Origin: Octopus vulgaris
Taxonomy: Eukaryota
Assembly: GCA_951406725.2 (NCBI GenBank)
Contig: OX597826.1
Location: forward strand, 13,330,001-13,394,000
DNA: 64,000 bases
Direction of reading: 5' to 3'
Positions 44,661 to 62,794 of the stretch are shown piece by piece. Position 1 is the first letter of the stretch; each line of letters begins with the position of its first letter. The notes under the pieces are model-generated. The model saw only the letters and a list, made by a program, of their open reading frames with translations. It did not search any database and was not told the DNA's origin. A program made the position numbers and the translations under genes.

Positions 44661-45631
44661 GACTGATGACCCTACGTGTGTGTTTTGTGTGTGTGTTTGT
44701 GTTTGTGTGTGTGTGTGTTTTGTGAATAAGCCAACGAAGGCCCCACTTAATGGTAGTTACACCTGACAGGAAATAACAAATATATTGACCTCACATCACA
44801 GCCTGCTACCTTATTTGTATAATTATGACCTGACGACACATCTGGATTGTAGCTAAGTCTGATATAGAAATTATTCCCAAAACAAACTCATCTTGCTTAC
44901 AAAATGTGTATGCTCGTACATGTATGTATGTATGTATGTATGTATGTATGTATGTATGTATGTATGTATGTATGTATGTATGTATGTATGTATGTATGTA
45001 TGTATGAATGTATGTATGTCATTATTCAGTTTTATTTCAAGACTTCTAGCCAATAGAGAAAGAGCCGGATTCTAGCCTAATTCCAAGTCTCTTTCATTGA
45101 AATTTCAACATCAACAGGGTATTTTTGCATGTATATCTGTATAAATGTAGCATTTGGAGTCAGTGTATGTATGTGTGTATGCATGCATGCATGTATGTAT
45201 GTATGTATGTATGTATGTATGTATGTATGTATGTATGTACGCACGAACGCACGCACGCACGGACGGATGGACGGACGGACGGACGGATGGATGTACGTAT
45301 GATCATCTATGGTGTCCAAACGCTATACTCGAGCATCAAGAAATAACTCTGTACATTATATTATACACATCCAGCAAAACAAGTTAAATCAATCTTTCTC
45401 ATTTAACACCAAAATCATCGACACGCCACATATATGTACAAATCTAAATTCGTTTATGCATGCACGCACACACGCCACCCCACTAAAATGCTTGAATGTA
45501 TGTTTGCATGTGTCAGTCTGAATACATGTGCTTTTGATTTCAAGTGTTTAGATGACTGTTTAGTGCCAAATATGATTTTAAGTAATAAATTAATTGAAAT
45601 TCAAACCGTAGTTTTGGTCGGTTAAATCACA

Positions 45632-45683
45632 ATTATGACGTCATAATACTGAAGTCAGAAAAACGCGATATTTTCCCTCATTC
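45632..45683 (+). promoter_or_regulatory. Putative promoter of paralog 1: 16-bp palindrome with full CRE, CRE variant and Inr-like motif
   Basis: ATTATGACGTCATAAT (45632-45647), TGAAGTCA (45650-45657) and TCATTC (45678-45683), about 120-170 bp upstream of the ATG. Identical in paralog 2. Confidence 0.55.
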
Positions 45684-45799
45684 ATTTGCGATACTTTGGC
45701 CATTGCTAACAGTTAACTTCTTGTAGGTTACTTTTACAATCCATTGATTTGCGTTAATATATTTGCTAATAGCTTGTTTGTTTTAATCGATATAACCAA

Positions 45800-48728
45800 A
45801 TGTCCGACGTTCTACACCGCCCGGGCTTCCGTAAACGACTTCGTAAAGGAGCTCGAAACTTTTTCTCAAGATTAATACCCTGCGTACGACGACCGAAACT
45901 TGAAGACCCTTTGGAAGATGACACAGATCTTTCTTCACCGTTATCATCAGACATCTCCTTGATGACAACTACAGAAGAAGATTTCCCGAGAAATCTCAAT
46001 CAATCTGCTATAATTCCTCGTATTGAGGGTGAGTTTTGCTAAAATTGTTTAAAATATATGCATAAAACAAATGAGGTTTGCATTGTTTATTTTTCCTCTA
46101 TATCTAACTATTTTTCTATCTATCTGATTATGTATTTATCAATCTCACACATCTCTCAGTTTCTCTATTTCTCTTTATGTTGCTATAAGTTATTCAACAA
46201 GATTTCTATGTAGTCAAACTTAGACAAGTTATTCAACAAGATTTTCTAACATATCGCCGGTTGACACATGCATATATACCTACATAAGAACAATTAGACA
46301 GCTTAAGGCCGGTAAGAAAATATAACAGTAGGTCAGTTGGAGTATTAAAGAACCGACAAAGGAGATCATTGGTAGACCCTTATCCGGGATCAATATCGAC
46401 AGGAAGAGCTGTTCGTTAGACTTCAGAAAGTCAGATAACAGTCGACTGAATTTAATCCTTGTACGTATGTGTGTGTGTGTATACATACATAGTATATATA
46501 TATATATATATATATATATATGTGTGTGTGTGTGTGTGTGTGTGTGTGTGTGTGTGTGTATGTAGACCTTCGAAACACGGAGTAGACGAAGCAGGGACAA
46601 CTGAAGAAGGGGAATATTCCTTGTGTTGTATGTCTTGTACTCTGTCTTTTCGTTGCTTGAAAAAAGTCCGTTTTCGTGGTTCTGTTTTTATGTTTTCGTT
46701 TCTCATTGTGTTCTACGTTTTTTTTTGGTGTCCTGTACCCATATATGCATATATATATACATATAGATGTAGGTATGTATATATATGTATGTATATATAT
46801 GCATATGTTTTATTTATTATTTTGTTATGTATATATATATATATATATATATATATATATATATATATATATATATATATATATATAAACTGGCATACAC
46901 ACAAGTGTGTACACGTGTGTTACTTTGTAAACGACTGAGTGTGTGTGTCTGTCTGTATGTCTGTCTGTGCGTGTGTAAGCCAGAAGCTGATGCTACGATT
47001 TGAGCCATGTTTTATAAGTATACAATATATCTCATTCAAATAACACCTTTCCGTCCTATCTGTGTAAATATGTACGACAATGTGACGTAAAAAATCTGAG
47101 CGGGGCTAAACTTGCTAGATATAGCAACCAAAATCGCCCTCAAACTTCATCAGCTTCACTCACACATACATGTACGATTTCTATTATTATATTTGTGTTG
47201 GTTTCAGATTTTACCCCCATTGACTACGACCAGTTTGAGCGAACATCTTGTCCAGGTAAATATTCGACCTTCTTAAACTTCAGTTAACAAATTAAAATAC
47301 TCTGTTATGCATTAATATATATTTTCCTGTGTTGGTAAGAGAGTCTGAGTTATCTTTTCTTTTCGTATTTTTTGTTTTTGTTTGTAGTAATAGTTTTATC
47401 CATTGTCTGTTTTCTTTTCCAGACTTACCCTCGATCGACACCGATTCCTTTGATGAAGAATTTCACGAACCATCAGAGTTTGGTAAGTTATTAATGCATT
47501 TTCTCATTTTATTTTACTATATATTATAAACTACCTACTCGATTGTTTTGTATTTTCTGAATATTTAAATATGGTACATAGACATATATACACACTCATG
47601 CATTTGAATATTATATGTATATATACATTTATATATATTTATAATGCATGAAACTCTCTGACCTTGGGTTATTTTTTTACTTCTACTAAATATTTATAAT
47701 AAAGATAGATAGATAGATAGGTAGGTAGGTAGGTAGGTAGGTAGGTAGGTAGGTAGGTAGATAGATAGATAGATAGATAGATAGATAGATAGATAGATAG
47801 ATAGATAGATAGATGGATGGATATGGATATGCATTTCTTAATCCCTCATGTATTGATTTGCTTTTGGTTTTGGACATGTCAAATGTGTCCCTCTTTTCAT
47901 TAGTTTCACATTTCGTGATATTTTCAAAATGTTAAGGCATGCCAAAATAACGTGAACATGCTAAAAGTTAATTCATTTTGCCTAAACTAGGGCTTACGAC
48001 TATGAAGGCGCCATGTCCCAGTGGTTAGGGCAGCGGACTCGCGGTCAGAGGATCGCGGTTTCGATTCCCAGACCGGGCGTTGTGTGTGTTTATTGAGCGA
48101 AAACACCTGAAGGCTCCACGAGGCTCCGGCAGAGGATGGTGGCGACCCTTGTTGTACTCTTTCGCCACAACTTTCTCACACAATCTCTTCCTGTTTCTTG
48201 AGTAACGCTGAGATGGATTGGCGTCCCGTCCAGCTGGTGGGAACACATACGCCACAGAAATCGGGAAACCGGGCCCATGAGCCTGTCTAGGCTTGAAAAG
48301 GGCGCATAAAAAAAGGGGCTTACGACTACCGTAGCATGGCCGACTCAATCATGAATGTAATACGCCAAGTACTATTTGAGAACAAACTTACAGCTTGTAG
48401 CGAATGATCGGGATATATCTATGCCTTGATAACTTAATGTCGTTGCGATACATATGTTCATGCATACATACTTTTCTCAAAATTCCTTTTCCATGTTTCT
48501 TTTAGTGTATAACATGAATTTTTATTTATTTGTTACTTTATTTATTTATTCATTTTATTTATTTGTTACTACATAGATGATGGGAGCCAGACCGAAGAGG
48601 TCCCTCTTTGTATTCCACTTATTGTATCCGACATCTTCATGCAAGCCAGTTCCGGTTTGCATCAAGTAGTACAGATCATCGTTTATTCTGTAAATGGTCA
48701 TGTGACCATGTCCGTAAAACTTGGCTAG
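45800..48728 (+). CDS. Spliced orphan gene, paralog 1 (162 aa; basic N-terminus, acidic middle, hydrophobic beta-rich C-terminus)
   Basis: Exons 45800-46028, 47208-47255, 47423-47482, 48577-48728. All introns are GT-AG (GTGAGT, GTAAAT, GTAAGT) and phase 1. Spliced frame is open: [31 protein letters not shown]...[91 protein letters not shown]. Structure is conserved in paralog 2. Confidence 0.85.
46562..46745 (+). mobile_element. Short Penelope-type terminal repeat fragment in intron 1
   Basis: GAAACACGGAGTA...GACAACTGAAGAAGG motif shared with the minus-strand element at 52150-52550. Confidence 0.4.
48003..48315 (+). mobile_element. SINE group C, tail type 2, with 13-bp TSD, in intron 3
   Basis: TSD GGGCTTACGACTA at 47990-48002 and 48316-48328. 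A/B boxes and an A-rich end. Confidence 0.85.
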
Positions 48729-48839
48729 ATCAGGTAAGTCATGATTAGATATTATTTATTCATCGATATGTTATATATATATATATACAGGTATGGTGTC
48801 ATTTTCATTTTTTTTCTTTTTTTTTGTGTGTGGTTTCAG

Positions 48840-61800: not shown

Positions 61801-62183
61801 CGTCTACCAAATCCACTCACAAGACTTTGGTCAGCCCGAGGCTATAGTAGAAGACACTTGCCCAAGGTGCCACGCAATGGGACTGAACCCGGAACCATGC
61901 GCCTATAACTTACTGTATTTGCAATACGTATTTACACGCGCATAGACTTTTCACAAAATACATATTCCATGCTTCTTTTCGTGTGTAAAACGAATATCTA
62001 TATATTGATGATTGTTTTTGTCACCGTATAGATGATGCTAACCAAAACGAAGAGGACCCACCTTGTATTCCAATTATTGTATCCGACATCTTCATGCAAG
62101 CCAGTTCCGGTTTGCATCAAGTCGCCAACATCATCGTTTATTCTGTAAATGGTCATGTGACTATGTCTGTAACACTTGGCTAG
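58843..62183 (+). CDS. Spliced orphan gene, paralog 2 (161 aa)
   Basis: Exons 58843-59068, 60465-60512, 60704-60763, 62032-62183. GT-AG, all phase 1, with the same 48/60/152-nt exon sizes. ...[93 protein letters not shown]. Confidence 0.85.
61040..61430 (+). mobile_element. SINE group C, tail type 4, with probable TSD, in intron 3 of paralog 2
   Basis: ATCCAAGACT at 61028-61037 and 61431-61440. A/B boxes. Confidence 0.8.
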
Positions 62184-62307
62184 ATTAGGTAAGTTATGAT
62201 TGCATATTTTGCAGTGTTAAAATACCAATATTTGATCCTATGTGATTTATACATCGATATGTTATACATACACACAGGTTTGGTACAATTATCTTCATTG
62301 TTTACAG

Positions 62308-62600
62308 ATATGTCAAGCACTTTGACCGCTGTGAGATTTGAATAGAGAAGCTGCCATACCTATACAGCACAAAAGACTTGTCCTACGTTCTAATGAACCT
62401 GAATATTCAACAGCATAGCTGAACAGCTAAAGAGAACACCATCAGAGTTATCCGGCCCAGGGTGCCAAATATGAAGAACACCCTGACCTTTTTTGTTAAG
62501 GTTAAACATTTTTTCGTAAATAAACGAAAAGGGGATGCAACTATCCGAATGACTGGAAACTTCTGGACATATTTTTTATAAAAGATAAAAATCATATTCT
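62308..62600 (+). other. Terminal exon 5 of paralog 2
   Basis: Donor TAG|GTAAGT at 62188, acceptor TTACAG| at 62307, AATAAA at 62519. Confidence 0.7.
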
Positions 62601-62794
62601 TTTTTTTTACTTATTTATATAACTTGCAGAGTATGGCATCTGAGTATAGGTGTCTGCTAGTTTTCGATTTTGCATAGTTTTCGATTTTAGGACCAGAAGA
62701 AATATTCTCTCCCTCACTATTTCTCTCTGTACTCCTCATATAATGTGACCGCGTGTGTATCGTCTTCTCTTCCTTGGATTTTTCCTTTTCCTAT

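What the first reader, a model, noticed from the sequence alone, without database searches (positions are those of the whole stretch)
45580..62680. Tandem pair of unannotated orphan genes with identical five-exon architecture
Seen: two genes 13 kb apart have the same exon sizes (48, 60, 152 nt), all phase-1 junctions each creating an Asp codon, intact frames, and introns that have diverged and gained different insertions. The protein has a basic amphipathic N-terminus ending in a Cys ([22 protein letters not shown]), an acidic low-complexity middle, and a conserved about 40-aa hydrophobic beta-strand-like C-terminus. Inference: this is a lineage-specific gene family. The N-terminus could be a membrane-binding/palmitoylation or nuclear/organelle-targeting segment. 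The symmetric 48- and 60-nt exons could be skipped in frame.
Basis: partly seen in the sequence, partly recalled or inferred. Interest (0 to 1): 0.7.

Follow-up and report, generated by a model that had tools for sequence, protein, structure and literature searches.

The report
Octopus-only gene pair with skippable exons
Two neighbouring copies of a small gene, whose named relatives are all from Octopus, have nearly identical front ends but diverged middles, and likely encode a membrane-anchored protein whose acidic spacer would be shortened by skipping small in-frame exons; it is a real, undescribed family, but an ordinary kind of lineage-specific gene.

Summary
The pair is real: two genes 13,043 nt apart (162 and 161 aa), with GT-AG introns, 48-, 60- and 157-nt internal exons, three phase-1 Asp junctions and an inferred non-coding fifth exon. 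They are not unannotated. A public O. vulgaris model fuses five of these exons, and O. sinensis and O. bimaculoides carry uncharacterised models of the family. Of 14 family records, 13 are named Octopus and 1 is unnamed. No Pfam, PDB-sequence or significant fold match was found. Public models lack the 60-nt exon (one O. bimaculoides isoform) or the 48-nt exon (three models), which supports in-frame skipping. New here: a 426-nt tract (upstream block plus exon 1) is 97% identical between the copies while introns are 66-79% identical, best explained by gene conversion. Family-wide conservation marks a basic amphipathic helix with invariant Cys28, an acidic disordered spacer and a predicted three-stranded beta-meander (pLDDT 82.5). 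The likeliest role (about 0.45) is an S-acylated, membrane-tethered adaptor with variable spacer length. Function and expression are untested. New member of a known kind; interest 0.3.

The parts
45583..45799 (+). Gene 1 upstream block (likely promoter/5' UTR); start of the homogenised tract; holds a 16-bp palindrome with a CRE-type core at 45632-45647
   Evidence: tract 45583-46008 is 415 of 426 nt identical to 58626-59051; the 8-bp CRE core (name recalled) occurs only twice in the window, once before each gene
45800..46028 (+). Gene 1 exon 1, coding part (76 codons + 1 nt): basic amphipathic helix, Cys28, start of the acidic Ser/Thr-rich spacer
   Evidence: 76 of 76 aa identical to O. vulgaris CAI9731604.1
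47208..47255 (+). Gene 1 exon 2, 48 nt, phase 1-1 cassette; absent from all three public gene-1-type models
   Evidence: 10-11 of 16 aa identical to the matching segment of four O. bimaculoides proteins
47423..47482 (+). Gene 1 exon 3, 60 nt, phase 1-1 cassette
   Evidence: 20 of 20 aa in CAI9731604.1, 18 of 20 in O. sinensis LOC118765758
47990..48328 (.). SINE-like insertion in gene 1 intron 3 with a 13-bp target-site duplication
   Evidence: sequence; similar to copies at 24225, 53162 and 61042
48577..48733 (+). Gene 1 exon 4, 157 nt (stop TAG 48726-48728): end of the spacer plus the three-stranded beta-meander
48840..49075 (+). Gene 1 exon 5, non-coding 3' UTR (3' end approximate; AATAAA at 49058 and 49129); inferred
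   Evidence: conserved acceptor, 317 of 376 nt identical to the gene 2 counterpart
58626..58842 (+). Gene 2 upstream block (likely promoter/5' UTR) with the same palindrome at 58675-58690
58843..59068 (+). Gene 2 exon 1, coding part (75 codons + 1 nt)
   Evidence: 74 of 75 aa identical to O. sinensis LOC118765860
60465..60512 (+). Gene 2 exon 2, 48 nt, phase 1-1 cassette
   Evidence: 16 of 16 aa in LOC118765860 and CAI9731604.1
60704..60763 (+). Gene 2 exon 3, 60 nt, phase 1-1 cassette
   Evidence: 20 of 20 aa in CAI9731604.1
61028..61440 (.). Independent SINE-like insertion in gene 2 intron 3 with a 10-bp target-site duplication
   Evidence: sequence
62032..62188 (+). Gene 2 exon 4, 157 nt (stop TAG 62181-62183), beta-meander domain
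   Evidence: 50 of 50 aa in CAI9731604.1
62308..62535 (+). Gene 2 exon 5, non-coding 3' UTR (3' end approximate; AATAAA at 62519); inferred

Best explanation
These are two tandem protein-coding copies of a small gene family with named members only in Octopus, whose front ends were likely homogenised by gene conversion, and whose products are predicted to be peripheral membrane adaptors: a basic amphipathic helix with a likely S-acylated Cys28 would hold them on the cytosolic face of a membrane, an acidic spacer built from skippable phase-1 exons would set their reach, and a predicted three-stranded beta-meander at the C-terminus would likely bind a partner. SHOWN: exon structure, open frames, family membership in three species, the identity mosaic, the invariant residues, and exon-skipped public models. 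INFERRED: gene conversion (strong, about 0.85), skipping in vivo (about 0.75), membrane tethering and S-acylation (about 0.45), and partner binding by the meander (from its size and its conservation at 22-27% overall identity). The partner, tissue and process are unknown.
For: Coding and under constraint: pN 0.106 vs pS 0.194 over 161 codons (Fisher p=0.02), and pN 0.224 vs pS 0.47 in codons 77-126 (p=0.012). Independent gene models exist in three species. Conversion: 415 of 426 nt identical over 217 non-coding nt plus 209 coding nt, against 122 of 169, 108 of 163, 89 of 119 and 54 of 68 in intron pieces and 109 of 150 in codons 77-126. Synonymous differences are 2 in about 51 sites vs about 14 in 30 (p=6e-6). 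In residues 1-70 the two copies share 67 of 70 aa but only 47-57 of 68-70 with O. bimaculoides copies; in exons 2+3 they share 19 of 36, while gene 2 shares 24 of 36 with LOC106880409. Tree path gene1-gene2 is 0.069 in exon 1 but 1.01 in the middle, where gene2-LOC106880409 is 0.47. Anchor: F10, R13, L14, R15, G17 and C28 are invariant in 9 of 9 aligned proteins, including paralogues at 28-36% identity. Residues 9-26 have hydrophobic moment 0.44-0.61 and net charge +3 to +7 in 10 of 10 sequences, with shuffle p<0.05 in 8 of 10 (scales recalled). C28 falls on the hydrophobic face, and AF2 puts a helix at 10-25. Highest 19-residue hydropathy is 1.34 and 1.19, so there is no clear transmembrane or signal segment. 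Spacer: net charge -24 and -22, about 30% Asp/Glu, pLDDT<50 over residues 22-120. Meander: strands 13-23, 26-38 and 41-48 of the 49-aa exon-4 model, mean pLDDT 82.5; P, D, V and G are invariant in 7 of 7 sequences. Precedent: S-acylated cysteines inside a predicted amphipathic helix target CBL2 to membranes, and added basic residues shift it towards the plasma membrane (10.1101/2023.01.17.524453, abstract).
Against: No localisation, acylation, expression or partner data exist for any member. A basic amphipathic helix equally fits a mitochondrial presequence or a calmodulin/protein-docking helix. In the two window proteins the moment is only borderline against shuffles (p=0.044 and 0.081). There is a single Cys, no Gly2 for myristoylation, and Pro27 breaks the helix just before the Cys. 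The middle-region and C-terminal trees have no well-supported branch, and the exon-1 grouping of the window copies has 91/93 support, below the star mark. Exons 2-3 are about as diverged at DNA level (31 of 48, 44 of 60) as the introns, so constraint there is weak; an open frame in one copy would survive such divergence by chance in about 21% of simulations. Exon skipping rests on predicted models whose read support I did not see. Both O. sinensis models end by reading into an intron and the O. vulgaris model is chimeric, so these annotations are imperfect.
Confidence: 0.45

Rival explanations
1. The N-terminal 30 residues are a cleavable mitochondrial (or other organelle) presequence, and the mature protein is the acidic spacer plus the beta-meander.
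For: Arg-rich amphipathic helix close to the start, with one acidic residue in the first 33 of the window proteins; no transmembrane or signal segment.
Against: The N-terminus is the most conserved part of the family, with fixed spacing from Met1 to Cys28 in 9 of 9 proteins, whereas presequences usually conserve character, not exact sequence (recalled). Distant paralogues carry Glu inside the helix. A conserved Cys has no role in import.
Confidence: 0.2
2. The basic helix is a protein-docking element (calmodulin-binding or kinase-anchoring type) rather than a lipid anchor, making the protein a soluble disordered regulator.
For: The invariant F10, R13, L14, R15 and G17 include polar-face residues, which suggests sequence-specific recognition. 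Basic amphiphilic helices are the usual calmodulin targets (recalled).
Against: By inspection the helix lacks the Gln and the spacing of an IQ motif (pattern recalled). This reading does not explain the invariant Cys28 followed by a hydrophobic residue and basic residues. No Pfam motif family was hit.
Confidence: 0.15
3. A nuclear, chromatin-associated protein: a basic import or nucleic-acid-binding segment plus an acidic tract acting like a histone or protamine chaperone, perhaps in spermatids.
For: Basic cluster plus a long acidic region, pI about 4.5. A CRE-type palindrome lies about 165 nt upstream of each start. Genes dating to the octopod ancestor show their highest expression in male reproductive tissue (PMC7656900, passage).
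Against: The K-R-x-R stretch is present only in gene-1-type copies. An 18-kDa protein needs no import signal (recalled). The hydrophobic face and the Cys are unexplained, and the fold searches gave no chaperone match (searches are inconclusive).
Confidence: 0.1
4. One or both copies are decaying or untranslated, and the similarity reflects a recent partial duplication or an assembly artefact rather than two working genes.
For: Gene 1 has a long branch in the middle region (0.63), its exon 2 is missing from all three public gene-1-type models, and public models of this locus are truncated or chimeric.
Against: All 8 of 8 introns keep GT-AG and both frames are open; pN<pS. An independent O. sinensis annotation holds both gene types with the same residue-12 difference. 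Full-length models exist in O. bimaculoides.
Confidence: 0.1

Closest known systems
Public uncharacterised Octopus models: O. vulgaris CAI9731604.1, CAI9731591.1, CAI9726543.1; O. sinensis LOC118765860, LOC118765758, LOC118761728; O. bimaculoides LOC106880393, LOC106880408, LOC106880409, LOC106879479, LOC106883218, LOC106872864
   Same: Same family. CAI9731604.1 is made of exons identical in protein to five window exons. All share the N-terminal helix and Cys28, and the full-length ones share the C-terminal meander.
   Different: None carries a function or domain name. The O. vulgaris model fuses the two genes, both close O. sinensis models are truncated, and no paper in the library names these ids.
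S-acylated, amphipathic-helix-anchored proteins (Arabidopsis CBL2, from the abstract read; GAP-43, RGS4, GRK6 tail and stathmin-2 recalled)
   Same: Works like: a short amphipathic or basic segment with a nearby Cys as the predicted membrane anchor; in GAP-43, followed by a long acidic disordered region (recalled).
   Different: No sequence relationship (no Pfam or PDB-sequence hit). A single Cys after a Pro, and a C-terminal beta-meander that these proteins lack.
Cephalopod tandem arrays of clade-specific genes, and protocadherin clusters homogenised by gene conversion (PMC9068888, passages)
   Same: [quoted passage not shown]
   Different: A small cluster (2 in the window, 3-6 models per species found), not a multi-megabase array; here the conversion is partial, confined to the 5' end and possibly the 3' end.
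COMM domain (COMMD9, 6bp6) and AMPK beta-subunit C-terminus
   Same: Small three-stranded antiparallel sheets; best VIA match Z 4.2, rmsd 3.2, 46 aligned, 2% identity; AMPK beta at Foldseek E 1.5-2.9.
   Different: Scores are at background for a three-strand meander, there is no sequence similarity, and the model has no C-terminal helix such as the COMM domain carries (recalled).

Membership tests
Taxonomically restricted (orphan) gene family | No detectable homologue outside the lineage | tested here: met
   6 hits at E<=0.001 among 1.84 billion; 4 named Octopus, 1 unnamed, 1 Drosophila repeat protein that fails profile comparison (probability 0.2%, E 0.28); 12 of 3,230 candidates, 11 Octopus and 1 unnamed. 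How well other cephalopods are covered in these libraries was not tested.
Taxonomically restricted (orphan) gene family | Protein-coding constraint and conservation in more than one species | tested here: met
   pN<pS, p=0.02; models in three Octopus species
Taxonomically restricted (orphan) gene family | Spliced transcripts from these two loci | tested here: inconclusive
   No reads were laid on the locus; support is indirect, through public predicted models
Paralogues under partial gene conversion | Tract of much higher paralogue identity than flanks, including non-coding and synonymous sites, with within-species grouping | tested here: met
   415 of 426 vs 66-79% in introns; synonymous p=6e-6; (tree support below the star mark)
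S-acylated amphipathic-helix peripheral membrane proteins (functional class) | Basic amphipathic helix with a conserved adjacent Cys and no transmembrane segment | tested here: met
   (prediction only)
S-acylated amphipathic-helix peripheral membrane proteins (functional class) | Cys is acylated and needed for membrane localisation | not testable with these tools
   needs acyl-exchange assay and imaging
MARCKS/BASP1-type myristoylated acidic proteins | Gly at position 2 (feature recalled) | tested here: not met
   Ser or Thr at position 2 in all members
Mitochondrial presequence proteins | Arg-rich amphipathic N-terminus that is cleaved on import | tested here: inconclusive
   Composition fits; strict sequence conservation is atypical; import cannot be tested here
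Transposon- or virus-derived proteins | Recognisable mobile-element domain, or exons matching dispersed repeats | tested here: not met
   No Pfam family at the thresholds used for 15 family proteins or exon peptides apart from one weak unrelated hit; in the part of the self-comparison shown, the exons match only each other; no viral fold at E<=0.001
COMM domain / AMPK beta C-terminal domain | Significant structural and sequence match to the domain | tested here: inconclusive
   Z 4.2 (rmsd 3.2, 46 aligned) at best, none at Z>=5 among 48,161 chains; no PDB sequence hit at E<=10

The most novel reading that the evidence does not exclude
The two genes form one combinatorial locus. Because every coding junction is phase 1, read-through transcripts mix spacer cassettes from both copies, as public model CAI9731604.1 does (gene-1 exons 1 and 3 joined to gene-2 exons 2, 3 and 4). 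Gene conversion keeps the promoter, the membrane anchor and the C-terminal binding domain interchangeable. The result would be an octopus-invented family of membrane-tethered molecular rulers whose length is tuned by splicing within and across paralogues, with a stand-alone 40-residue beta-meander as a new interaction module.
Probability: 0.1. Interest if true: 0.62.

Novelty: new member of a known kind. Interest (0 to 1): 0.3.

Why it matters
It defines an undescribed Octopus gene family (12 named loci or models in three species) with a clear three-part anatomy and a cheap test of function. It corrects a public model that fuses two genes. It is also a compact example of partial gene conversion acting on a promoter and first exon while the spliced middle drifts. 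It does not overturn a principle: clade-specific tandem genes and conversion are already reported in cephalopods (PMC9068888). It would matter more if cross-copy read-through splicing, or a tissue-specific role tied to an octopus trait, were shown.

Tried and rejected
Pfam: 0 families for 14 of 15 family proteins or exon peptides; one hit below its cut-off (GPR180/TMEM145, E 0.034) rejected. PDB sequence search with one protein and with an 8-sequence profile: 0 hits at E<=10. ESM Atlas: no usable hit for two queries, which shows neither novelty nor absence. Fold searches with the full model and the domain model: none at E<=0.001 in PDB or viral libraries, none at Z>=5; Roadblock/LC7, COMM, AMPK beta, Nudix and dsRBD rows are background for a three-strand meander. 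Homodimer prediction of the C-terminal 41 residues: no answer, score 0.00, alignment not used; not evidence either way. Sequencing runs: no RNA holder listed among 24 rows; not evidence on expression. The Drosophila 1,277-aa hit (E 8e-14) was rejected as an acidic-repeat composition match. An apparently invariant N-x-S sequon at residues 69-71 is N-x-C in two further paralogues and there is no signal peptide, so glycosylation was rejected. Endocytic (DPW), LIR and FFAT-like words (patterns recalled) are each present in only some copies, so they were rejected. Rfam: 0 matches in 44000-64000. No genome is held, so copy number could not be counted directly. Literature: 20 distinct locus, protein and UniProt ids gave 0 papers. 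Supplements searched without a hit: PMC9815951 (1 file), PMC9712504 (3 files, 1 further file unreadable), PMC9699675 (3 files, 1 further file not searched). Supplements of bioRxiv preprints and most expression tables were not seen and may hold expression data. Earlier findings of the scan: none in 3 look-ups.

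
Full report
What is there. The window is animal DNA rich in microsatellites and SINE-like repeats. Two same-strand genes start at 45800 and 58843. Each has a first coding exon (229 and 226 coding nt), a 48-nt exon, a 60-nt exon, a 157-nt exon holding the stop 5 nt before its donor, and an inferred non-coding last exon. All 8 of 8 introns are GT-AG, all 6 of 6 coding junctions are phase 1 and create Asp, and the products are 162 and 161 aa with 130 of 161 aligned residues identical. 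Profile searches of the window's six frames found these two copies and no third.

It is not unannotated. Protein searches returned 14 family records: 13 named from O. vulgaris (3 models), O. sinensis (3 loci) and O. bimaculoides (6 loci, 7 proteins), and 1 unnamed. O. vulgaris CAI9731604.1 consists of gene-1 exons 1 and 3 followed by gene-2 exons 2, 3 and 4, each identical in protein to the window. The window is therefore most probably O. vulgaris, and the public model fuses the two genes. A second O. vulgaris model, CAI9731591.1, on a contig of the same length, is a further gene-1-like copy (74 of 76, 19 of 20 aa) with a different C-terminus. Three O. bimaculoides loci share one 65-Mb contig; that they are in tandem is inferred from the ids. 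The only hit outside Octopus, a Drosophila repeat protein, fails profile comparison. Pfam, PDB sequences, the ESM Atlas and fold libraries gave nothing significant. Coverage of other cephalopods in these libraries was not tested, so 'Octopus-only' means 'in the libraries searched'.

Exon skipping. O. bimaculoides LOC106880409 has isoforms X1 and X2 that differ by exactly the 20-residue exon-3 segment. O. sinensis LOC118765758 and both gene-1-type O. vulgaris models join exon 1 directly to exon 3, omitting the 48-nt exon, whereas O. sinensis LOC118765860 joins gene-2 exon 1 to exon 2. These are predicted models; RefSeq isoforms are usually built with RNA-seq support (recalled), but I did not see that support, and both O. 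sinensis models run on into an intron. No reads were laid on the locus, so junction use and tissue remain open. Exons 2 and 3 resemble each other weakly (protein p about 0.04; DNA 13-18 of the first 30 nt, p 0.002-0.095 over four pairs), which suggests but does not show an old tandem exon duplication.

The mosaic. Identity between the copies is uneven. From 45583 to 46008, covering 217 nt upstream of the ATG and the first 70 codons, 415 of 426 nt match. Codons 77-126 match at 109 of 150 nt and codons 127-162 at 99 of 108. Alignable intron pieces match at 122 of 169, 108 of 163, 89 of 119 and 54 of 68, and the last exon at 317 of 376. Synonymous differences are 2 in about 51 sites in the tract and about 14 in 30 in the middle (p=6e-6). 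Strong selection cannot explain the tract, because O. bimaculoides copies differ from the window copies at 13-21 of 68-70 residues there, while the two window copies differ at 3. A recent whole duplication cannot explain it either, because the introns are 21-34% diverged and carry independent SINE-like insertions with different target-site duplications. Gene conversion of the 5' end is the simplest reading; a weaker, older event at the 3' end is possible (p=0.02). O. sinensis has both gene types with the same residue-12 difference, so the event would predate the vulgaris-sinensis split, given as about 2.5 million years (10.1101/2024.12.09.627507, passage). Against: the trees of these short regions have no starred branch for the relevant groupings. 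Conversion among cephalopod tandem genes has been proposed for protocadherins (PMC9068888, passages).

The protein. Across paralogues down to 22-36% identity three parts persist. (1) Residues 10-28: F10, R13, L14, R15, G17 and C28 are invariant in 9 of 9; the segment is a basic amphipathic helix in 10 of 10 sequences (moment 0.44-0.61, charge +3 to +7; shuffle p<0.05 in 8 of 10), with C28 on the hydrophobic face and a helix at 10-25 in a low-confidence AF2 model (mean pLDDT 46). (2) An acidic, Ser/Thr-rich, predicted disordered spacer of about 87 residues (net -24 and -22), largely encoded by the cassette exons and under weak constraint (pN/pS about 0.5). (3) A C-terminal 38-40 residues predicted as a three-stranded antiparallel meander (mean pLDDT 82.5 with a 7-sequence alignment). 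There is no Gly2, signal peptide or clear transmembrane segment in the window proteins.

How it most likely works. I commit, at about 0.45, to a peripheral membrane adaptor. The helix would bind anionic membrane and present Cys28 for S-acylation, as described for the amphipathic N-terminus of plant CBL2 (10.1101/2023.01.17.524453, abstract and outline) and in line with lipid-plus-basic anchors of disordered signalling proteins (PMC7752083, passages). The acidic spacer would be repelled from the membrane and hold the meander at a distance set by inclusion of the 16- and 20-residue cassettes. The meander, too small and hydrophobic to be an enzyme, would bind a partner. Every step of this mechanism is inference. 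Rivals are a mitochondrial presequence (0.2), a calmodulin- or protein-docking helix (0.15), a nuclear acidic chaperone (0.1) and decay or artefact (0.1). A CRE-type palindrome (name recalled) sits about 165 nt upstream of both starts and nowhere else in the window; because it lies in the homogenised tract its presence in both copies is not independent evidence. Genes of octopod age tend to peak in male reproductive tissue (PMC7656900, passage), so testis is the first tissue to check; this is a guess.

Novelty. No paper in the library names any of 20 distinct ids searched, and three papers' supplements gave no hit (two files not searched). The family appears undescribed, but it is a new member of a known kind: a clade-specific tandem gene family with symmetric cassette exons and partial conversion. 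The boldest reading not excluded is that the fused public model reflects real read-through splicing that mixes cassettes of the two copies (probability 0.1); a gene-prediction artefact is more likely. Interest 0.3.

Noticed in passing
window 55000-58050: Decayed non-LTR retrotransposon-like sequence between the two genes; one fragment (56443-56799) has a weak RVT_1 hit, E 0.088, below the cut-off.
   Followed up: partly
window 38932-40560: A GIY-YIG endonuclease fragment (39845-40285, minus strand; Pfam E 2.9e-07) between 379-bp inverted repeats (38932-39309 and 40198-40560, 91% identical); Penelope-like by recalled knowledge.
   Followed up: partly
window 7454-8351: Broken Tc1/mariner-like transposase remnants on the minus strand (helix-turn-helix hits below cut-off), interrupted by a microsatellite.
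   Followed up: partly
window 14663-16821: AT-rich tandem units of about 850 bp, roughly three copies at 68-77% identity; resembles decayed mitochondrial-type coding DNA by eye, but all six frames under table 5 are full of stops and its identity is unresolved.
   Followed up: partly
window 13262-13510 / 13871-14100 and 36436-36629 / 36950-37143: Two short local direct duplications (84% and 91% identical).
   Followed up: no
window 3727-4156, 6104-6534, 32819-33258: Three copies of a roughly 430-bp element with terminal inverted repeats of about 28-30 bp (MITE-like), 88-91% identical.
   Followed up: no
window 34462-35773: A 1.3-kb trinucleotide microsatellite that yields long spurious ORFs in several frames.
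   Followed up: no
window 47698: An AATAAA in gene 1 intron 3, about 215 nt after exon 3; could serve an intronic poly(A) isoform like the truncated O. sinensis model LOC118765758.
   Followed up: no
window 45800-62188: Public model CAI9731604.1 fuses exons of both genes and should probably be split; CAI9731591.1 is a third gene-1-like copy with a different C-terminus.
   Followed up: partly
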